The notes beneath the pieces are model-generated. The model was given only the letters and a program-made list of their open reading frames with translations. It had not been told where the DNA came from and ran no database searches. Below, in pieces: positions 4,092 to 22,545 of a stretch of DNA of 64,000 bases; position 1 is the stretch's first letter, and each line of letters starts with the position of its first letter. The stretch is taken from IMG/VR virus record IMGVR_UViG_3300046501_000246; one strand, written 5' to 3'. Source of the DNA: a virus. Both the position numbers and the translations under genes were made by a program.

Positions 4092-4541
4092 GCGCTGGTA
4101 AAGCATCGATTTGCCATTGGGATTTGAGGGCCAGATTCTTCACCAAAGAACAAGCCGTTAAAGCTATTAAACTTTTACTTGAGGAAGATATTGATTTCGA
4201 TATTGCGTATTCAGTTGAAATGGGTGATAGTCTGAATCGAACTGCTTATATCATCGATATTGACGGAATGTCTTGGGCCAATAATCTTGAAACCGTGGCA
4301 CAAATTTTAAAAGAAGTAGATCACAAATATGAATGAGTCTGAGCTACGCGAAAAGATTATTAAAGTTTTAGGACCAGAGCTATATGGCGCGTATGACTGC
4401 ATCCGAGTTTGGGAAGCTTGGTCATATGGTACGATGAGTCAGGATGATTTTGTTCCAGTTGAAGATCGGCTAGGCGAGATTGCTGAGAGCTTATTAAAGG
4501 AGATTTTGGGTGACAACTACGACGGGACTGACAGTAATTAG
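4088..4541 (+). CDS. two hypothetical proteins (4088-4336; 4329-4541)
   Basis: ORF track; overlapping start/stop junctions. Confidence 0.6.
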
Positions 4542-5526
4542 CGGCTTGCTTCCAACTCGTGGTCATCAATATCTAATTGATTTTGCATCTAAATTCGTTG
4601 ATCGACTCCACGTCATAGTCTGTATCAGATCGTTTGAGCCTCGTCTCACGCTGGATCGTGCCGAAGTTTTAGCAAAACATTATGCCGGTACGAATGTAAC
4701 AGTTCATGAGCATTACGCCGACGATGCGCCTCAAAATGACGATGGCACGACGGAGTTTTGGGACTATTGGGCCAATCTTGTAGATAAAGCCGTCACTAAA
4801 CGCAAAAAGATTGATTATTTCTTCGCCTCTGAAAAGTATGGCGCTCGATTTGCTGAAGCTCTTGGCGTCACTTTTGTTCCTGTCGATATTGGCAGGGAAA
4901 TCCTGAGCGTCACAGGAACGCGTGTGAGACAAAATCTCGCTGAGAATTTTAAATATATCCTCCCCGAATACCAAGGCAAATTGGCAAAAACGGTTTGCCT
5001 CTACGGACAAGAATCGGTAGGCAAAACCACAATGTCAAAGTGGCTCGCCACGAAGCTTGAAGGCCGTTGGATTCATGAATGGGCCAGACCTTATCTTGAA
5101 GAAGTCGGCGCTGAAGTCACGGATGAAAAAATGTTAAACATTGTGCGTGGTCAGTACGCTGTCATGGTTTCCGCACCTACTGCATTGTTTAATATAAGAG
5201 ATACTGATCTCCTTTCAACCATTGGATATTATAAAATCTACGGCGGTAAAATGCCTGAAGAACTTATCCAAAAATTTAACTTGACAAAAAGCGATCTTTA
5301 TGTAATGTTAAATGACAATATCCCTTTCGAGCCCGATCCTTTGAGATATGGCGGAGATAAGAGGGAAAGTGAGATGCAGTTCTGGATCGACCTTCTGGAC
5401 GAATATGACTGCAAATATCATGTCGTGGAAAGCACTGACATTAAGAAACAGCGCAAAGAAGTTGTAGAAGCTGTTTACGATTTTTTCACTGATCTACGAG
5501 AGATAGAGGAATTCATTCGTGACTGA
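4510..5526 (+). CDS. nadR: NadR-like NMN adenylyltransferase / ribosylnicotinamide kinase (no HTH)
   Basis: PTRGHQYLI (HxGH-like), PVDIGREILSVTGTRVR, Walker A GQESVGKTT, HEWARPYLE, DTDLLST, FEPDPLRYG. Confidence 0.85.
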   Translation: MTTTTGLTVISGLLPTRGHQYLIDFASKFVDRLHVIVCIRSFEPRLTLDRAEVLAKHYAGTNVTVHEHYADDAPQNDDGTTEFWDYWANLVDKAVTKRKKIDYFFASEKYGARFAEALGVTFVPVDIGREILSVTGTRVRQNLAENFKYILPEYQGKLAKTVCLYGQESVGKTTMSKWLATKLEGRWIHEWARPYLEEVGAEVTDEKMLNIVRGQYAVMVSAPTALFNIRDTDLLSTIGYYKIYGGKMPEELIQKFNLTKSDLYVMLNDNIPFEPDPLRYGGDKRESEMQFWIDLLDEYDCKYHVVESTDIKKQRKEVVEAVYDFFTDLREIEEFIRD

Positions 5527-6032
5527 ATACAAAAAAGGTGACAAAGTTATCTTTGTCGATCCAAATCACAGGTACGGTGGCTGGAATTTTACGGTAGGAA
5601 AGATCTACACCGTTGGTGGAAAGTTTTTCCAAGATTTTCCTGACATGTTGGGAATTGAGGCTGACGACTCTGGTAATCCTAATGGACACGAGTTTGAGTT
5701 TTTCGTCTCCGCTCCTGCCGATGAGCAAACGTTCTGTTCTTGGTGGAACAGCTATTATCCTCAAGAATATGGCCACAACGCCGAATTTAGAAACATTGTG
5801 GAACGCCACGCCGAAGCGGCATATCTGGCGGGAAAGAAGTCAAATGCCGTCACATAGCTTATTTTTTCTTTGGCTTAAGTTACTCTTTATCGATCTCGTA
5901 TTCTGTGCCGGTATTTTCTTTGGAATATATGGTCTCGCCTTATATTTAGATGTCACGGTTCGTGACTTCGTTCCACTACTAATCACCGCATTCGCAGTCT
6001 ATAGCGCAACGGCGCGTTACAAGGAACTTTGA
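5519..6032 (+). CDS. two hypothetical proteins (5519-5857; small membrane protein 5844-6032)
   Basis: ORF track; ATG 5844 gives a hydrophobic 62 aa product. Confidence 0.55.
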
Positions 6033-6033
6033 T

Positions 6034-6441
6034 ATGAACTACAAATGGCTTACCTTCAACTGCGTCTCGCTCTTCATCATGGCATTTCTGATCCAATTTT
6101 ATGACGCAGCTAACTTTATCTGGACCATGGATAAGACTCACATCACGCTGGTAATTCTGGCACTTTATGTGACCTGTTCGGCCTATTTAGGGATTATGGG
6201 TGATAAAATCAACTTTAAAAAAATTAGATTTCATCTAAATCGCTTTACGATGTGGGGCCTGATTGGCACCATGACAGGCCTTATTCTAATGTTCATGGGC
6301 GCTGACGATATGGAGGCTTTTAGACAGAATATCTTGACCGAAGTTGGTCCAGTTTTCCTCACTGGCTTGTTTGGCCTAGCCAGCAGCATTGCCCTTGATT
6401 ATCAGATCGCGCTATGCTTCGATAATTATGACGAAGTTTAA
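6034..6441 (+). CDS. MotA/TolQ/ExbB-like proton-channel membrane protein
   Basis: four hydrophobic segments; GLIGTMTGLILMF and FLTGLFGLASSI resemble the two conserved ExbB/MotA TM helices. Confidence 0.6.
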   Translation: MNYKWLTFNCVSLFIMAFLIQFYDAANFIWTMDKTHITLVILALYVTCSAYLGIMGDKINFKKIRFHLNRFTMWGLIGTMTGLILMFMGADDMEAFRQNILTEVGPVFLTGLFGLASSIALDYQIALCFDNYDEV

Positions 6442-6461
6442 TTTTTGAAAGGAAGAGCCTA

Positions 6462-7046
6462 ATGAAAGGCCCTGTCAAAATTGCATACATTGATGTACTT
6501 CAATGCCTTATAGCAGTATTTTTCGTTGTAATTATTCTCTCTACGCCGAAGAAGGAAGAATCAAAGGGAACGATCATTGATCCGTCTCAATTCCTAGTCG
6601 AAATGACGTGGACCGATGATAGTCCAAACGATGTTGATCTCTGGATGAGTAATCCAAATAACGACATTGTCTACTATCACACCAGAGAAATCGGCGGCAT
6701 GACCCTAGACACAGATAATCTAGGCAGAAATAATACTTTTACTGACCCTAGCGGCAACCTAATTGTTAATCACACACGCCGAGAGGTAGCCAGCATTAGA
6801 GTAGTCATGGCAGGCACTTACACCGTCAATGTAATGCTTTTTGATAAACCAACTAAAGGACCAGAAACGGTCAAAATCAGGGTCTTCAAGCTAAATCCTT
6901 ATAAAGATATTATTGAAAAAGTGGTTGTACTGGAAACTGTTAAACAGGAATCCACTATTTTACAGTTCGATATCGACAAGGATGGCAACTTTATTAGTAA
7001 GTCTGAAGATGAACAGATTTCTCTCTTTGCGAGGCTAAAGGCATGA
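6462..7046 (+). CDS. ExbD/MotB-like single-TM protein with periplasmic beta-rich (YfaP-like) domain
   Basis: IAYIDVLQCLIAVFFVVIIL TM with Asp in an IDV context; TWTDDSPNDVDLWM...LDTDN, GTYTVNV motifs. Confidence 0.55.
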   Translation: MKGPVKIAYIDVLQCLIAVFFVVIILSTPKKEESKGTIIDPSQFLVEMTWTDDSPNDVDLWMSNPNNDIVYYHTREIGGMTLDTDNLGRNNTFTDPSGNLIVNHTRREVASIRVVMAGTYTVNVMLFDKPTKGPETVKIRVFKLNPYKDIIEKVVVLETVKQESTILQFDIDKDGNFISKSEDEQISLFARLKA

Positions 7047-7510
7047 TCATTCCATCTATCATCATTCTTGGACTTCTACTTGTTACAGTTTTTGTCGGCT
7101 TCCGATATAATTGGAAGCTCTCACTGGCTATTTTCATTCCAATGCTTTATCTCGGTTATTGGACCGTAGCCACTCAGGTTCCAAAATACTTTGGCTATGC
7201 CGTGCCAATCAATTTCGCTGAAATGGAAAACCAAGCCCTAATGATCAGCGGTTATGACGGCGGTAAGTCTATCTACCTTCTCATCATAGAGAAAGGCGTC
7301 AAGGAACCACGTCTCGTCAGCATGCCAAATAATGCTGAAAATAGGGCAATATTTAACCAGCTTACCAAAAAAATCAAGAACGGCCAAGCCGCCATTATTA
7401 AGAAAAACAATAAAAAAGGTAAAATGGGCAAAGGTGAAGGTCAATCCAGTATGGGCGATATCGAAGGCGTAGAGATGAAGGATCAAAATATCCTTCAGAA
7501 GGAAGGATGA
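7043..7510 (+). CDS. membrane-anchored hypothetical protein, third gene of the trio
   Basis: two N-terminal TM segments; ATGA overlap with upstream gene. Confidence 0.65.
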   Translation: MIIPSIIILGLLLVTVFVGFRYNWKLSLAIFIPMLYLGYWTVATQVPKYFGYAVPINFAEMENQALMISGYDGGKSIYLLIIEKGVKEPRLVSMPNNAENRAIFNQLTKKIKNGQAAIIKKNNKKGKMGKGEGQSSMGDIEGVEMKDQNILQKEG

Positions 7511-7966
7511 TCGTGAAACCTGCATATTACTTGATTGAAAACTGTAAGTGCGAAGCCTATGTCCAAGAAATTGCGGTCTGTATTTTCTGGCGCAGATGGT
7601 ATTGGAAGGCTAAATTTTATTACGAAGGCGAATGCACTCCGTATGACATTTTTGATGGAACAGAATTAACAGAGCAAGAAGCAATCGACTCTTGCCTCAG
7701 TAAATATGGGGAGTTGTTTCCTTCCGATGACTAAAGCTGTTGTAGTTTATCAAGCTGGCGACGAGAAACATAGTATTCAAGTCGCCTTAAGTAGGCGAGA
7801 TGGAAAGACTTTTGTTAGAGAATTTAAGCGCCATACCAGATTCGGAAAGAAGTGGGATACATGGCGCGAAACATCTTTTCCTGAAGTGATTGCACTAGGA
7901 TTTGAAGAATTTAAACGCGTCGATAAAGGTGTCAAAGTTGTCTTACCTATTCCCATTACTACTTAG
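7507..7966 (+). CDS. two hypothetical proteins (7507-7734; 7727-7966)
   Basis: ORF track; overlapping junctions. Confidence 0.55.
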
Positions 7967-8012
7967 TGTTGGCGTCAATATTACATGTTTCATGGCTTTT
8001 GCGGCATGGAAG

Positions 8013-8219
8013 ATGGGCCAAACCCCTCGTGACAGAGTAAGACATAAAGTCCGAGGCTCTTATTACGAAATCATAGGTTTTGCCACGGTCCAAACCGCTG
8101 ATGCACTTAAAGATGACGATAGAGTTTTTGTTTATCGAGATATTGACTCTGACGAAATGTATGTTAGAAAAGATAGTGAATTTGCAGATGGAAGGTTTGA
8201 ATTAATCAATGCCAAGTAA
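8013..8219 (+). CDS. DUF1653-like small SH3-type protein (start uncertain, 7992 or 8013)
   Basis: RHKVRGSYYEIIGFA...VYRD...MYVRKDSEF resembles DUF1653. Confidence 0.5.
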   Translation: MGQTPRDRVRHKVRGSYYEIIGFATVQTADALKDDDRVFVYRDIDSDEMYVRKDSEFADGRFELINAK

Positions 8220-8703
8220 TTTAAAAACTATGATCCTCGTCAAAGCTGCTCTATCTGGCCAATACGACAAGCAGAAAGTATCTAAGTACGATCACTGTGT
8301 CAGGGTTTCTAATAATGCATTAATGCTGGTGAAGCGTTACGACATTGCGGACGAAAAGCTCGCAAGTGATATTTATCAAGTCGCACTGCTCCACGACGTA
8401 CTTGAAGATAGCGATATTACGGCTTATGATCTCCATCTCTATGGATATAGCAATGCCATTATCGACGCGGTAGAGCTTTTGACTCACTATAACGAAGATG
8501 GAAGTTATTCAGACTATATCGATACGCTCTGCGCCAGCGGTAATATCACTGCTCTGATCGGCAAGCTGGCCGACAATATGGATAATACATCAATTGGACG
8601 CAATGCTGATCTTGATGATAAGTTTAAAGCCTACCTCAACAAGAGGTACGCTGGTGTGAGAGAGAAGCTTGAAGCAGCGATTGAAAAGGTTTTATCAGCA
8701 TGA
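8209..8703 (+). CDS. HD-domain hydrolase, RelA/SpoT-hydrolase (Mesh1/SAH)-like
   Basis: YDHCVRV, ALLHDVLEDS, AVELLT, KLADNMDN. Confidence 0.75.
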   Translation: MPSNLKTMILVKAALSGQYDKQKVSKYDHCVRVSNNALMLVKRYDIADEKLASDIYQVALLHDVLEDSDITAYDLHLYGYSNAIIDAVELLTHYNEDGSYSDYIDTLCASGNITALIGKLADNMDNTSIGRNADLDDKFKAYLNKRYAGVREKLEAAIEKVLSA

Positions 8704-9672
8704 AACTTTTAAAGGAACATATCGAGTATTTTTTGGCTCAGGGCGCATTAAGCCCCGGAACTATACTTAAAATTTTTACTGATTTAAACTTCAATAAAAG
8801 AGATGTTCAAACTATTATTCACAGTGGTTTTGATCGCGGTTATTGGCACTTAGATAAAAACATGTACGTGTCACTAGGGCCGTGGATTGGCGAAGTAAAT
8901 GACTGAAGCTCAGATTAAACACATGGTTAACCGGTTTCTGACATGGAAACTGCCTGAAAACTTTAATCCAGACGCAGGAATTAGCTTTAAGCCAGATTTT
9001 AATGAGAACACTCCGTGGCCCAAGAAGCATCAACCCTATGGCACCAATCTGCTCGACGCGGTTCAAGCCGAAGCAATGGTCCGTCACCTTCTTGAAGGAA
9101 TTGAATAATGTGGCCCTCCGATCCTCTGACACAAGTCTTCGCCGTGATAGCATTGTATTTCACTGTGAAATGGATTTTAATAATTATTAACAACAAAATT
9201 AATGGTACGAAAGACACATTCGAATGACAAATAATGTAAGTTCTTCATCTTCAAGTGGTATTGGTTTCGTCGGTCTCCTCACCATTCTTTTCATCGCTCT
9301 GAAGCTAACCGGCTTCATTGCTTGGTCTTGGCTATGGGTACTGTCTCCGCTCTGGATCGCGCCCCTAGTAATTATCGCAATTCTCGTTCTTCTATTTCTA
9401 ATCGCTCTTAAAATTGATGGTTCAAAAAGACGATGACTCTATTAGATTATTATTTACTTTGGGCCGGTTCGGGGCTTTTGGGCTGTGTCATAGGATTCTA
9501 TATAGATTATTATCTAGGGAATGACTCTAGATTAAAGGATTTGCTAGGATTTATCACTCTTGCTCTAATTATTGGACCTTTTGTTGCCGTGATGGCTATA
9601 TCGTATTTCTGCTCAGAATTTAAAATTTTAGACAGAGTAATCATCCGTGGAAGGAAGAAAAATAATGACTGA
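8700..9672 (+). CDS. run of small hypothetical proteins (8700-8906, 8899-9108, membrane proteins 9224-9436 and 9433-9672)
   Basis: ORF track; 9224 carries GIGFVGLLTILFIALKLTG..AWSWLWVLSPLW, a hydrophobic phage membrane-protein pattern. Confidence 0.6.
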
Positions 9673-19463: not shown

Positions 19464-21575
19464 ATGATTTCTAATAACGCGTTAAGTGCCGACGTGATTG
19501 TTCACGGCGCGGCAGACACAGGCAATTTTTCCATCGACGCAAATGGAAAAGCATTCAAAATCCTAATCGACGGCCTTTATTCCAATAAAATTCAAGCCAT
19601 CATCAGAGAGCTAAGTTCAAACGCTTATGACGCTCAAATTGCAGCTGATCGTAGCGACTTCGCTTTCGAGGTTCAGCTTCCCAATCTCCTTGACCCTATT
19701 TTCTCGGTTCGAGACTATGGCACCTCATTGTCTCACGAAGACATTATGGGCCTTTATACCACCGTGTTCCGCAGCACGAAGGAGAATACGAACCTAGCGA
19801 TTGGCAAGTTTGGCCTCGGATCGAAGACGCCTTTTGCTTACACCGATAGCTTCACCGTCACTGCGTTTATGCGCGGCACGAAGCGTGTCTATGGTGCTTA
19901 CCTTAATCCTCAAGGCATTCCTCAAATCTCGCTCATGATGTCAGAAGACACAAACGAGCTAGATGGCTTGATGGTATCGTTCCCTGTCAACTCTAAGGAT
20001 TGTGAACGCTTCAGGCAGGAGATGGAGCGCGTCTTAGAGGGTTTCGACGTTGTTCCCAACATCCGTGGCGGCGAGGTAAAACTCAAAACGCGTGGCGAGC
20101 CTTTTTATACCGGTTCAAATTTTGAAATCTTTAAAGGCGTCGGCAAGGCCCGCGCCAAGCAAGGTTGCGTAATTTATCCCATTGATACTGATGCCTTGGG
20201 CAAACTGACCTATGCTCAGAGGGATATTTTAACATCTAATATTCTCATTGATTTTCCTATAGGGCAACTCGACGTAACGCCGAGCCGTGAATCTCTCAGC
20301 TATGACGACGCAACGATTCAAAATATCGTTGATATGGCTGATTGTGTCAGTGAAGAAATTACCAAGGACTACAAGGAAAAGTTCTCCAAAATCAAGACGA
20401 TGCATGAGGCGCGCTGCTTTGCTGCTGAGCATCAACATTCTGTTATTGCATGTGTCAAGAGCTATATCGCCCATCTGAGATTTAACGATAAGCCGGTTAA
20501 CGTGGCATCAGCAATGAATCGCGACAGGATCAGACAAGTCTACAACGTCGCGATTCATTATACCAGCGCTTATGATTTTAGAAATAAAAACCTTAAATTT
20601 AGTGAGAAGGAATACACAACTAAGTGGAGTGTCGATAGTGATACTATGTTCTTGGTTGAAGATTATACCAAAGCTAAAAAAGTTAAATTAATTAATGCTA
20701 GGGTCAAAAATAATATCGGAGACCACGATAACGTTGTCTGGATCAGAGACTATGGTGCAAGTCCTGAACAATTAAGAAAATTAAAAAAGCTTTTAGGTTA
20801 TCCGCCGAAGTTCTACCGCCTAGAAGATTTCAATCTTCCTGAGCGCGAAAAGCCCGATCCATCATCTTATCTGCCAAGGATTAAACATAGCGAGGTAAGA
20901 GTTGTCGGCTTTGGGATAGGTGATGCTGTCCTAGACCTGAAAAACTTAACGCCTGACACTCGTTATATTATTACACACAACGGAAGTTTGTGGGTAGACG
21001 AGTCTTACGATAAATACGTTTACAACCACACAATACATAACCTGTTCGAAGATAAGACGAATATTTTTGTTGTCAAGCAGAAGTCTCTTAATAAGGTCAA
21101 AGCGGCTGGCGTGACAAACGCGCTGACCGAGGCTCGCGACGAATTGGCCAAGGGTCTAGATTTCAAGTCTTTTGTTGAGAAAAGCAATCTAGAAAAGGAA
21201 ATGAATCATTGGCTCAAAAATTACGCCGAAGAATTAAGCGTTTTAGAATATGAAAATGATACTTCATTCAAAAAAGTGCTTGACTTTATGCGTAGATATG
21301 CTAAGAGCGAGGATGAACAAACAGAGAACGCGAAAAACATTCTGCTTTGGCAGCAACTTGTCCCGCCCCAAGTTTATAGCGAAAAGATAGCTGAATTCAC
21401 GATAGAAGTTTCTTCTGATGAGGCCCTAAAACATTGGGTCACAAAGATCAAAGAAGATTATCCGTTGATCGACAAATACATTATTTCCTATGATGACGGC
21501 ACGTTCTTAAATAATTTGAATAATATTTTTAATTATATTAAAATGGTAGATAGAGAGAATGAGCAACATGCATGA
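19464..21575 (+). CDS. rIIA: rIIA-like protein (N-terminal GHKL/Hsp90-like ATPase)
   Basis: LYSNKIQAIIRELSSNAYDA, VRDYGTSLS, STK, IGKFGLGSKTPFAYTDSF; followed by rIIB-like gene. Confidence 0.85.
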   Translation: MISNNALSADVIVHGAADTGNFSIDANGKAFKILIDGLYSNKIQAIIRELSSNAYDAQIAADRSDFAFEVQLPNLLDPIFSVRDYGTSLSHEDIMGLYTTVFRSTKENTNLAIGKFGLGSKTPFAYTDSFTVTAFMRGTKRVYGAYLNPQGIPQISLMMSEDTNELDGLMVSFPVNSKDCERFRQEMERVLEGFDVVPNIRGGEVKLKTRGEPFYTGSNFEIFKGVGKARAKQGCVIYPIDTDALGKLTYAQRDILTSNILIDFPIGQLDVTPSRESLSYDDATIQNIVDMADCVSEEITKDYKEKFSKIKTMHEARCFAAEHQHSVIACVKSYIAHLRFNDKPVNVASAMNRDRIRQVYNVAIHYTSAYDFRNKNLKFSEKEYTTKWSVDSDTMFLVEDYTKAKKVKLINARVKNNIGDHDNVVWIRDYGASPEQLRKLKKLLGYPPKFYRLEDFNLPEREKPDPSSYLPRIKHSEVRVVGFGIGDAVLDLKNLTPDTRYIITHNGSLWVDESYDKYVYNHTIHNLFEDKTNIFVVKQKSLNKVKAAGVTNALTEARDELAKGLDFKSFVEKSNLEKEMNHWLKNYAEELSVLEYENDTSFKKVLDFMRRYAKSEDEQTENAKNILLWQQLVPPQVYSEKIAEFTIEVSSDEALKHWVTKIKEDYPLIDKYIISYDDGTFLNNLNNIFNYIKMVDRENEQHA
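21280..21307 (+). promoter_or_regulatory. possible internal rIIB promoter within rIIA
   Basis: TTGACT-N16-TAAGAG with TG extension. Confidence 0.3.
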
Positions 21576-22545
21576 ACTAGGTTTTATTCTGACCGCAAAA
21601 GGCGTCCTTTTGTTTTTTGACGGTAAGTCAGTACCCGTTGATAAGACACATCTTTATTTCGAAGACATTGTTACCGAACTGAAGAAGGGTCACGGCAATT
21701 TTGATGTGGCCCGCGTCAAGGAACTTTCAAATATTCCTGAGACGATCAAAGGTAAACTCTTTGGCGACGTGACTGTCACAGATGGCCAGATTTACTACAA
21801 GAACAGACCGCTTCACAATACTTTGACCACTAAGATGATTGAAGTCATGAGAGAAGGTTGGGACATTGCCATTTGGGCTAACTTCTTGAATAATGTGATG
21901 AAGAACCCTTCACAAACTGCTATTGACGAACTGTATCTGTTCCTTGAAGCGGCGCAAATGCCTCTAACATCAGATGGTCACTTCCTAGCATTTAAGAAGG
22001 TAAATAATGACTATACCAGTATTTACGACAACAAAACAGATAACAGTATTGGCTCAAAGCCTTCTATGCCTCGTGAAACGGTCGATCCCAACCGTAATTC
22101 TACTTGCAGCCGTGGTCTACATTTTTGTGCTCATAGTTACTTAACTCATTTTGGTGATGCCTCAAAATCACGTGTTGTTGTCGTTAAGATCAATCCCGCT
22201 GATGTTGTGGCTATCCCTTCGGATTATGCTAATGCCAAGGGCAGGGCTTGGACCTACGAAGTCGTAAGCGAAATCGATAATCCCGGCGACGGCGAGCGTG
22301 AAAAGCGTTTTGATGTTGCGGTAGATGATTCGTGGGATGCGCCAGAGGAAGACACAGCTGAACTAGCTCTTGGTGATACTCCTAGTGATCTTCTCTTTGG
22401 CGACATTTACACGGCACAGGAAATCCTTGACAAAGTGAATGAAATCGGTTCTATCAGGGGTGCGGGTCGAGCCCTCAGAATTGCTAAATCCACATTTGGC
22501 GATTGGGTCAAGAAGGCGAAGGAAATCACTTCACAGGAGGATTAA
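21559..22545 (+). CDS. rIIB: rIIB-like protein with C-terminal HTH
   Basis: NFLNNVMKNPS..AIDELYLFL, LTSDGHFLAFKKV, CSRGLH, VVVKINPADVVAIPSDY, KGRAWTYEVV. Confidence 0.85.
   Translation: MSNMHELGFILTAKGVLLFFDGKSVPVDKTHLYFEDIVTELKKGHGNFDVARVKELSNIPETIKGKLFGDVTVTDGQIYYKNRPLHNTLTTKMIEVMREGWDIAIWANFLNNVMKNPSQTAIDELYLFLEAAQMPLTSDGHFLAFKKVNNDYTSIYDNKTDNSIGSKPSMPRETVDPNRNSTCSRGLHFCAHSYLTHFGDASKSRVVVVKINPADVVAIPSDYANAKGRAWTYEVVSEIDNPGDGEREKRFDVAVDDSWDAPEEDTAELALGDTPSDLLFGDIYTAQEILDKVNEIGSIRGAGRALRIAKSTFGDWVKKAKEITSQED

What the first reader, a model, noticed from the sequence alone, without database searches (positions are those of the whole stretch)
6034..7510. Phage-encoded ExbB/MotA-like + ExbD-like + third membrane protein: a candidate ion-driven motor module
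Three contiguous membrane genes. (1) A 135-aa protein whose GLIGTMTGLIL and FLTGLFGLASSI helices match the two conserved channel helices of MotA/TolQ/ExbB, but which lacks the large cytoplasmic domain. (2) A single-TM protein with AYIDVL, matching the ExbD/TolR PLIDV motif with its essential proton-carrying Asp, followed by a YfaP-like beta domain rather than a peptidoglycan-binding OmpA domain. (3) A translationally coupled 2-TM protein in the position a TonB/TolA-like effector would take. Such 5:2 stator complexes power Ton, Tol, flagellar and Zorya systems. A stripped-down phage version has no role I can name. Possibilities (inference): superinfection exclusion by jamming host Ton/Tol or flagellar stators, PMF modulation or lysis timing, or interference with Zorya-type sensors.
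Basis: partly seen in the sequence, partly recalled or inferred. Interest (0 to 1): 0.78.

Follow-up and report, generated by a model that had tools for sequence, protein, structure and literature searches.

The report
Phage-borne miniature MotA/ExbB-type motor trio
An uncultured large phage carries three tightly coupled membrane genes that look like a stripped-down relative of the ion-driven motors behind flagella and Ton/Tol transport; hundreds of phages and bacterial chromosomes keep the same trio together, and I found no study of what it does.

Summary
Three coupled genes encode A (6034-6441, 135 aa, 4 TM), B (6462-7046, 194 aa) and C (7043-7510, 155 aa).

- **A** is a minimal MotA/TolQ/ExbB-family protein. 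The Pfam match is just under threshold for this copy and clear for relatives. Its closest folds are ZorA and ExbB. It has no cytoplasmic domain.
- **B** has a MotB/ExbD-type transmembrane helix. Its Asp is kept in 141 of 144 cluster representatives. The periplasmic domain has a TerD-like fold, not OmpA or ExbD.
- **C** is a 2-TM protein of no named family.

In 80 viral loci picked by B alone, A lies directly upstream in 75 of 76 and C directly downstream in 78 of 79. No other gene is shared by more than 26 loci.

The trio is not phage-specific. It also sits among ordinary chromosomal genes in Pelagibacteraceae, Polynucleobacter and Geminicoccaceae.

Against a close relative, the channel core (A TM2-4 plus the B helix) has been swapped as one block.

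Best reading: an ion-driven 5:2-type motor whose output faces the periplasm. Assembly and function are unproven. This scan has met the same trio before on other DNA. I found no published study.

The parts
5844..6032 (+). Possible accessory gene: 62-aa ORF with two hydrophobic helices and an intramembrane Asp (LLFIDLVF). It ends 1 nt before A's start.
   Evidence: Read from the sequence. A homologous uncalled ORF lies directly upstream of A in relative L169, but not in L002 or L170. It is not part of the conserved trio.
6034..6441 (+). A: minimal 4-TM MotA/TolQ/ExbB-family subunit with no cytoplasmic domain
   Evidence: Pfam PF01618 E=3e-4 over residues 72-120. 34 of 61 family members hit PF01618. 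AF2 pLDDT 90. Top structural matches are ZorA Z=10.2, ExbB Z=9.6 and ZorA Z=8.8 and 8.7. T79 and T110 align with PomA T158 and T185.
6462..7046 (+). B: single-TM MotB/ExbD-like subunit (Asp11 in AYIDVL), short linker, periplasmic TerD-like beta-sandwich (about residues 44-181)
   Evidence: Asp in 141/144 representatives. MotB_plug hits in 11 of 60 members and ExbD in 2 of 60. AF2 pLDDT 92.7. TerD structures 3ibz Z=11.7, 2qng Z=9.9, 2qz7 Z=9.3. 1737 representative clusters at E<=1e-3.
7043..7510 (+). C: 2-TM hairpin protein with a small conserved domain (G-x-P, IY-x-W, PR-x-Y..PY motifs) and a variable charged tail. Translationally coupled to B by an ATGA overlap.
   Evidence: Overlap read. C-like gene directly downstream of B in 78 of 79 viral loci and 64 of 74 genome loci. 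No Pfam, PHROG, NCBIfam or PADLOC family. Its nearest Atlas clusters are mostly viral and carry no Pfam family.

Best explanation
A, B and C are the subunits of one inner-membrane complex of the MotAB/ExbBD/TolQR/ZorAB kind. A forms the outer ring. B's transmembrane helix sits inside it, and its Asp11 binds and releases the coupling ion (H+ or Na+) next to A's Thr79 and Thr110. Ion flow down the membrane gradient drives relative movement of A against B. Phage A has only a few cytoplasmic residues, and B's beta-sandwich follows the membrane after a linker of about 15 residues. The work must therefore be delivered at the periplasmic face of the inner membrane, through B's TerD-like head and C's probably periplasmic domain, and not to a cytoplasmic rotor or directly to the cell wall. 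Shown here: homology of A and of B's helix, conservation of the ion-path residues, strict three-gene linkage, presence in phages and in bacterial chromosomes, and block replacement of the channel core. Inferred: the 5:2 assembly, rotation, C's topology and its membership in the complex. The role in infection is a guess: a self-contained cassette shared with bacteria that uses host membrane energy to act on the cell envelope, for example keeping up or altering an envelope function during infection.
For: A belongs to the MotA/TolQ/ExbB family:
- Pfam E=3e-4 for this copy.
- 34 of 61 relatives hit PF01618, best E=6.5e-7.
- Chromosomal orthologs pass Pfam's threshold, at 30.9 and 34.9 bits.
- PADLOC ZorA E=2.6e-4.
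- The best PDB sequence match is PomA TM3-TM4.
- The four best of 48,161 structural comparisons are ZorA and ExbB, Z=8.7-10.2.

Ion path:
- A T79 aligns with PomA T158, and T110/111 with PomA T185/T186.
- These positions are conserved in the family.
- PomA T158, T186 and PomB D24 are essential for ion conduction (PMC6677748).
- B Asp11 is kept in 141 of 144 representatives.
- Weak MotB and ExbD hits fall on that helix.

Linkage:
- A directly upstream of B in 75 of 76 viral loci, and C directly downstream in 78 of 79.
- 68 of 78 and 64 of 74 in bacterial genome loci.
- No other gene family occurs in more than 26 of the 80 viral loci.

Co-replacement against relative L002:
- Flanking DNA is 83-95% identical, but 6109-6593 is only 39-52% identical.
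- A residues 26-135 are 30% identical and B residues 1-37 are 30% identical.
- A residues 1-25 are 88% identical and B residues 38-194 are 95% identical.
- The membrane-embedded parts of A and B were therefore exchanged together, as expected for interacting parts.
Against: No direct evidence of assembly, stoichiometry, ion flow or rotation. This copy of A scores just under Pfam's curated cut-off (21.0 against 22.9 bits). Z-scores near 10 are within the range that helical bundles can reach by chance (note). B's window copy has no significant family hit of its own. C's topology rests only on the positive-inside rule, and C has no known relatives. No target, and no phenotype in any phage or bacterium, is known. 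The genomic context differs from phage to phage, so it gives no clue to the role.
Confidence: 0.62

Rival explanations
1. A regulated ion leak rather than a force-transducing motor. The A/B channel, gated by B's beta-sandwich and by C, lowers or senses the membrane potential. That would time lysis (holin triggering) or re-tune host energy metabolism.
For: The ion-path residues are conserved. Phage A has lost the cytoplasmic output domain. From established knowledge, unplugged MotAB/PomAB leaks ions and stops growth, an assay also used in PMC6677748. Earlier notes of this scan report copies next to lysis genes. One Atlas cluster of phage lysozymes has a part with weak structural likeness to C residues 46-153, TM 0.48.
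Against: The same trio is a chromosomal fixture in free-living bacteria with small genomes, which argues against a lethal leak. None of the ten commonest neighbours in 80 viral loci is a lysis gene. In this window the trio lies in the early/replication region.
Confidence: 0.15
2. Interference or exclusion. The phage proteins mix with or block the host's own motors (Mot, Ton, Tol, Zorya or the chromosomal trio), or they block DNA entry by later-arriving phages.
For: A aligns best with the ZorA transmembrane core. Phage copies are truncated compared with chromosomal ones (135 aa against 173-253 aa). The channel core is swapped between close relatives, a pattern often seen in conflict genes.
Against: All three genes are kept together in phages, and the ion-binding Asp and Thr residues are kept too. 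A mere blocker would not need them. No Zorya-like partner genes or PADLOC hits for B or C.
Confidence: 0.12
3. Three unrelated small membrane proteins whose likeness to stator proteins comes from hydrophobic composition.
For: Individual scores for the window's own proteins are weak.
Against: The weak hits agree with each other and fall on the right helices. Relatives give clear Pfam hits. The Asp is near-invariant. Linkage is almost absolute across phages and bacteria.
Confidence: 0.03

Closest known systems
TolQ-TolR-TolA and ExbB-ExbD-TonB (Tol and Ton inner-membrane energisers)
   Same: Three adjacent inner-membrane genes. One is a MotA/TolQ/ExbB-family subunit. One is a single-TM partner with an essential intramembrane Asp. 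The third is a membrane-anchored protein in the TolA/TonB position. Output probably faces the periplasm.
   Different: A has 4 TM helices and almost no cytoplasmic domain. B carries a TerD-like beta-sandwich on a short linker instead of the ExbD/TolR fold. C has a 2-TM hairpin, no His-bearing single helix, no long spacer and no TonB_C/TolA domain. No Pal, TolB or TonB-dependent receptor genes are nearby.
MotAB / PomAB flagellar stator units
   Same: A has MotA-like 4-TM topology. The TM3 and TM4 Thr residues align with PomA T158 and T185/186. B's I-A-Y-x-D-[VF] helix resembles the MotB Asp helix, and some relatives hit Pfam MotB_plug.
   Different: No torque-generating cytoplasmic domain between TM2 and TM3. 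No OmpA-like peptidoglycan-binding domain. No flagellar genes.
ZorA-ZorB of the Zorya anti-phage system
   Same: These are the best structural and PADLOC matches of A, and the loops between the transmembrane helices are short in both.
   Different: No long ZorA tail, no ZorB peptidoglycan-binding domain and no ZorC/D/E effector genes. Here the genes are carried by a phage.
TerD-family calcium-binding beta-sandwich proteins (PDB 3ibz, 2qz7, 2qng)
   Same: The fold of B residues about 40-194 (Z=9.3-11.7). B also has a cluster of invariant acidic residues.
   Different: TerD proteins are soluble and cytoplasmic. There is no Pfam TerD sequence match. B's domain is anchored to a stator-type helix and faces the periplasm.

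Membership tests
MotA/TolQ/ExbB superfamily (Pfam PF01618), A subunit | Sequence homology of the two C-terminal channel helices to PF01618 | tested here: met
   Window A scores E=3e-4 and 21.0 bits against a curated cut-off of 22.9. 34 of 61 relatives hit at E<=0.01. Chromosomal orthologs found with the same profile score 30.9 and 34.9 bits, above the cut-off.
MotA/TolQ/ExbB superfamily (Pfam PF01618), A subunit | Conserved polar (Thr) residues lining the ion path in the inner helices | tested here: met
   T79 aligns with PomA T158 and T110/111 with PomA T185/186. They are conserved in the family. Their role in PomA is documented in PMC6677748.
MotA/TolQ/ExbB superfamily (Pfam PF01618), A subunit | Fold of the transmembrane core | tested here: met
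   The four best of 48,161 chains are ZorA and ExbB (Z=10.2, 9.6, 8.8, 8.7; 95-113 residues aligned). MotA scores Z=7.5 and TolQ Z=6.7. Caveat: these Z values are not beyond what helical bundles can reach by chance.
MotA/TolQ/ExbB superfamily (Pfam PF01618), A subunit | Pentamer around a dimer of the partner (5:2) | not testable with these tools
   Needs purification with native mass spectrometry or cryo-EM.
MotA or ExbB proper (orthologs) | Large cytoplasmic domain between the outer and inner helices | tested here: not met
   The TM2-TM3 connection is a few residues long in the model (helices 37-58 and 61-88). The whole protein is 135 aa.
MotB/ExbD/TolR, B subunit | Single N-terminal TM helix with an invariant Asp | tested here: met
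   Asp11 is present in 141 of 144 representatives that have the column. The modelled helix spans residues 3-27.
MotB/ExbD/TolR, B subunit | Sequence match to Pfam MotB_plug or ExbD | tested here: inconclusive
   MotB_plug hits in 11 of 60 members (best E=4e-4) and ExbD in 2 of 60. The window copy has only an NCBIfam MotB hit at E=0.1, on MotB residues 25-58.
MotB/ExbD/TolR, B subunit | OmpA-like (MotB) or ExbD/TolR-type periplasmic domain | tested here: not met
   The periplasmic domain is a TerD-like beta-sandwich. There is no OmpA match, and no ExbD match on this domain.
TonB/TolA, C subunit | Single N-terminal TM helix, long spacer, C-terminal TonB_C/TolA domain | tested here: not met
   C has two N-terminal hydrophobic helices, 155 aa in all, and no Pfam or NCBIfam family.
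Zorya (ZorAB plus effectors) | ZorA with a long C-terminal tail, ZorB with a peptidoglycan-binding domain, ZorC/D or ZorE genes nearby | tested here: not met
   A ends a few residues after TM4. PADLOC gives no hit for B or C.
TerD family (domain of B) | TerD beta-sandwich fold | tested here: met
   3ibz Z=11.7 over 143 residues, 2qng Z=9.9, 2qz7 Z=9.3. The next unrelated row scores 6.1. Foldseek probability is 1.00.
TerD family (domain of B) | Sequence match to Pfam TerD and its calcium-binding motifs | tested here: inconclusive
   TerD is not among the 25 Pfam families listed for the 60 members at E<=0.1 (29 matched in all). The invariant acidic residues D57, D59, D85 and E108 were not mapped onto TerD's calcium sites.
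DUF2135 / YfaP | Match to Pfam PF09906 | tested here: inconclusive
   1 of 60 members at E=0.08. JGI labels two relatives YfaP. PPC (PF04151) hits 6 of 60 members, best E=1.1e-5.

The most novel reading that the evidence does not exclude
The trio is a distinct, unnamed functional class of ion-driven 5:2 motors. Its output is a membrane-proximal periplasmic head (a TerD-like, possibly calcium-binding sandwich plus the C protein). It works in many Proteobacteria, and phages carry it as a mobile cassette to spend host membrane energy on the cell envelope during infection.
Probability: 0.5. Interest if true: 0.8.

Novelty: new variant of a known kind. Interest (0 to 1): 0.66.

Why it matters
Only a handful of functional classes of these small ion-driven motors are known: flagellar rotation, Ton uptake, Tol envelope maintenance, gliding/type IX secretion and Zorya defence. 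Each class revealed a new way cells use membrane energy outside the cytoplasm.

This trio has the motor core but two undescribed partner parts. It is common: at least 1737 sequence clusters, at least 410 viral contigs and at least 559 hits in bacterial genome contigs. It occurs in abundant marine and freshwater bacteria. Very different phages keep it intact.

Finding its target would define a new use of the proton-motive force and a new kind of phage auxiliary module. Culturable Rhizobium and Sinorhizobium phages that carry it make the question testable now.

Tried and rejected
- **Complex prediction** of A (4 copies, the tool's maximum) with B residues 1-45 (2 copies): no verdict, score 0.19 against a mark of 0.32, controls not run. 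It counts neither for nor against binding. A 5:2 job is not possible with this tool.
- **DNA search** of 5500-8000 against 50,697 phage records: no match.
- **PHROGs**: no family for A or C. B gave only a partial hit to an unannotated family.
- **Foldseek of A against the PDB**: nothing at E<=0.001, although the top rows were ZorA, PomA and ExbB.
- **PDB sequence search with the B profile**: only chance-level ribosomal protein S6 hits.
- **Literature**: five full-text searches and a search within one evolution paper found no description of this trio. My recollection that HMO-2011-type phages are annotated with such a gene was not borne out.
- **Lysis link**: none of the ten commonest neighbour families in 80 viral loci is a lysis gene. 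None of about 60 C proteins in my sample is fused to a lysozyme. Only a weak Atlas structural row hints at such a fusion.
- **Sequencing runs**: no RNA holder listed. One DNA run holds a 0.05 share, too small to name a habitat.
- **Whole genome**: none is held for this window.
- **B tree**: this copy falls in a clade with Rhizobium phage copies, apart from the sampled chromosomal copies. The tree gives no direction of transfer.

Full report
**What is there.** Window 6034-7510 holds three + strand ORFs: A (6034-6441, 135 aa), B (6462-7046, 194 aa) and C (7043-7510, 155 aa).
- B has a good ribosome-binding site, AAGGAAGAG.
- B/C overlap as ATGA, and so do C and the next small gene.
- The window is the early/replication part of a phage. 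The longest contig on record that carries A or B is about 181 kb.
- Nearby genes include primase, family-A DNA polymerase, helicases, ligases, rIIA-like and NAD-salvage genes.
- No DNA relative exists among 50,697 deposited phages.

**A is a minimal MotA/TolQ/ExbB-family protein.**
- The window copy hits Pfam PF01618 at E=3e-4, just under the curated cut-off (21.0 against 22.9 bits). The hit covers residues 72-120, the last two helices.
- The same region matches PADLOC ZorA models (E=2.6e-4), NCBIfam MotP and PomA TM3-TM4 in the PDB.
- A profile that included Rhizobium phage copies found 94 small proteins of 96-183 aa. Of 61 aligned members, 34 hit PF01618 at E<=0.01.
- Chromosomal orthologs pass Pfam's threshold.
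- The AlphaFold model (pLDDT 90) has four long helices and almost nothing in the cytoplasm.
- In an exhaustive comparison with 48,161 PDB chains, the four best are ZorA type I (Z=10.2), ExbB (9.6), ZorA type II (8.8) and E. coli ZorA (8.7). MotA (7.5) and TolQ (6.7) follow.
- Z values of this size are not decisive for helical bundles. They agree with the sequence evidence.
- In the PomA alignment, T79 matches PomA T158 and T110/111 match PomA T185/T186. These are residues needed for ion conduction (PMC6677748).

**B has a stator-type helix and an unusual head.**
- The AYIDVL Asp is present in every close relative that has an N-terminus.
- It is present in 141 of 144 diverse cluster representatives.
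- In phage 16-3 p040 the automatic alignment puts a Gly there. An Asp six residues earlier, followed by a helix of the same length, fits equally well. That is my reading.
- Eleven of 60 members hit Pfam MotB_plug and two hit ExbD. The window copy gives a weak NCBIfam MotB hit on MotB residues 25-58.
- The model (pLDDT 92.7) shows helix 3-27, a linker of about 15 residues with lower confidence, and a beta-sandwich at 44-181.
- The sandwich matches TerD-family structures well above background: 3ibz Z=11.7, 2qng Z=9.9, 2qz7 Z=9.3, with the next unrelated entry at 6.1.
PPC hits 6 of 60.
- W50, D57, D59, D85 and E108 are invariant. I read the acidic ones as a possible metal site, which is inference.

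**C.**
- It has two N-terminal helices, a small domain with conserved G-x-P, IY-x-W and PR-x-Y..PY motifs, and a variable charged tail.
- It matches no library. Its nearest Atlas clusters are mostly viral and carry no Pfam family.
- The loop between the helices is the most positively charged part in the copies I read. I therefore place the domain in the periplasm, which is inference.

**The trio is a unit.**
- B's family is large: 1737 representative clusters at E<=1e-3, nearly all about 180-230 aa.
- From IMG/VR I took 80 loci chosen by B alone, out of 410 confirmed.
- An A-like gene lies directly upstream in 75 of the 76 loci with room.
- A C-like gene lies directly downstream in 78 of 79 after one profile iteration. 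The one miss, L040, has a C-like gene at that spot that the script's longest-ORF rule skipped.
- No other gene family occurs in more than 26 of the 80 loci.
- The ten commonest neighbours are capsid, protease, Hsp20, ClpS-like, tail tube, UvsY, ribonucleotide reductase and helicase genes. None is a lysis gene.
- Among deposited phages, A and B are adjacent in Rhizobium phages of about 68, 154-158 and 171 kb. Of these I checked C only in the 68-kb and 156-kb phages.
- C follows B in RHph_N3_19 and P10VF. Temperate phage 16-3 has the trio with inserted genes (p038, p040, p042).

**It is not phage-specific.**
- A scan of one genome per bacterial species gave at least 559 confirmed relatives. A is adjacent in 68 of 78 loci and C in 64 of 74.
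- In a Pelagibacteraceae genome the trio lies between ABC-transporter, aspartate dehydrogenase and Suf genes.
- In Polynucleobacter victoriensis it lies between a DegP-like protease, cytochrome b561 and a porin.
- In a Geminicoccaceae chromosome (3.6-Mb contig) and another alphaproteobacterium it lies next to trehalose-phosphate synthase and GH15 genes.
- No phage genes were seen in those flanks.
- The chromosomal A proteins I looked at are longer (ORFs of 173-253 aa). The Pelagibacteraceae and Polynucleobacter copies have a real cytoplasmic loop.
- The window's 135-aa A is the most reduced form I saw.

**A new piece of evidence for A-B contact.**
- I compared the window with its IMG/VR relative L002. 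DNA identity is 83-95% in the flanks but falls to 39-52% between 6109 and 6593.
- At the protein level, A residues 1-25 are 88% identical and A 26-135 are 30% identical.
- B residues 1-37 are 30% identical and B 38-194 are 95% identical.
- C looks nearly identical when the two sequences are read side by side.
- The membrane-embedded core (A TM2-4 plus the B helix) was therefore exchanged as one block. B's head and C stayed. This is what one expects if these segments work in contact.

**Mechanism.**
- The best-supported reading is an ion-driven complex of the 5:2 kind.
- Phage A has no cytoplasmic domain, so the output cannot be a cytoplasmic rotor or tail as in MotA or ZorA.
- B's linker is short, so its head must sit close to the membrane rather than reach the cell wall as MotB and TolR do.
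- The work is thus most likely delivered to C and to some periplasmic or membrane target.
- What that target is, and what the phage gains, is unknown.
- I rank a host-like envelope function first, a regulated ion leak second, and interference or exclusion third.

**Relation to earlier work.**
- Full-text searches found no paper on this trio.
- UniRef already labels some Rhizobium phage A proteins as MotA/TolQ/ExbB domain proteins.
- Earlier follow-ups in this scan reached similar conclusions on other genomes. I reached mine before reading them.
- I re-tested the shared claims: distribution and TerD-like fold were confirmed.
- In my sample no lysis gene was among the ten commonest neighbour families. 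The lysozyme fusion rests on a weak hint only. A CtrA box was not tested.

Noticed in passing
window 5844-6032 (+): An uncalled 62-aa ORF with two hydrophobic helices and an intramembrane Asp (LLFIDLVF, reminiscent of B's helix). It ends 1 nt before A's start. A homolog sits at the same place in relative L169, but not in L002 or L170. It could be an optional fourth subunit or a second B-like helix.
   Followed up: partly
window 6109-6593 compared with L002: Mosaic block. Between two otherwise 83-95% identical phages, the segment encoding A residues 26-135 and B residues 1-37 is only 39-52% identical in DNA. The cause (recombination with another allele or rapid diversification) is unexplained.
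   Followed up: partly
window 7507-7734 (+): A 75-aa Cys-rich ORF coupled to C by an ATGA overlap. It is kept downstream of C in the close relatives L002, L169 and L170. I did not look for it in more distant phages.
   Followed up: partly
window 4510-5526 and 8209-8703 (+): A NadR-like nicotinamide-nucleotide adenylyltransferase with an AAA_28 kinase domain lies upstream of the trio. An HD-domain phosphohydrolase lies downstream. The relatives also carry an NMN transporter gene nearby.
   Followed up: no
window 19464-22545 (+): An rIIA-like gene (703 aa, phrog_612 E=2.6e-119) is followed by a 328-aa ORF that may be its rIIB-like partner. These are membrane-associated proteins of T4-type phages that could matter for any membrane-energy role of the trio.
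   Followed up: no
window 9224-9672 (+): Two adjacent small ORFs (70 and 79 aa), each with two strongly hydrophobic helices, coupled by an overlap. Function unknown.
   Followed up: no
L005 (phage 16-3) 3247-5108: In temperate phage 16-3 the trio is interrupted: p038 (A-like), p039 (unrelated 96 aa), p040 (B-like), p041 (61 aa), p042 (C-like). A trypsin-like protease gene lies just upstream, as it does near the trio in RHph_N3_19 and in Polynucleobacter.
   Followed up: no
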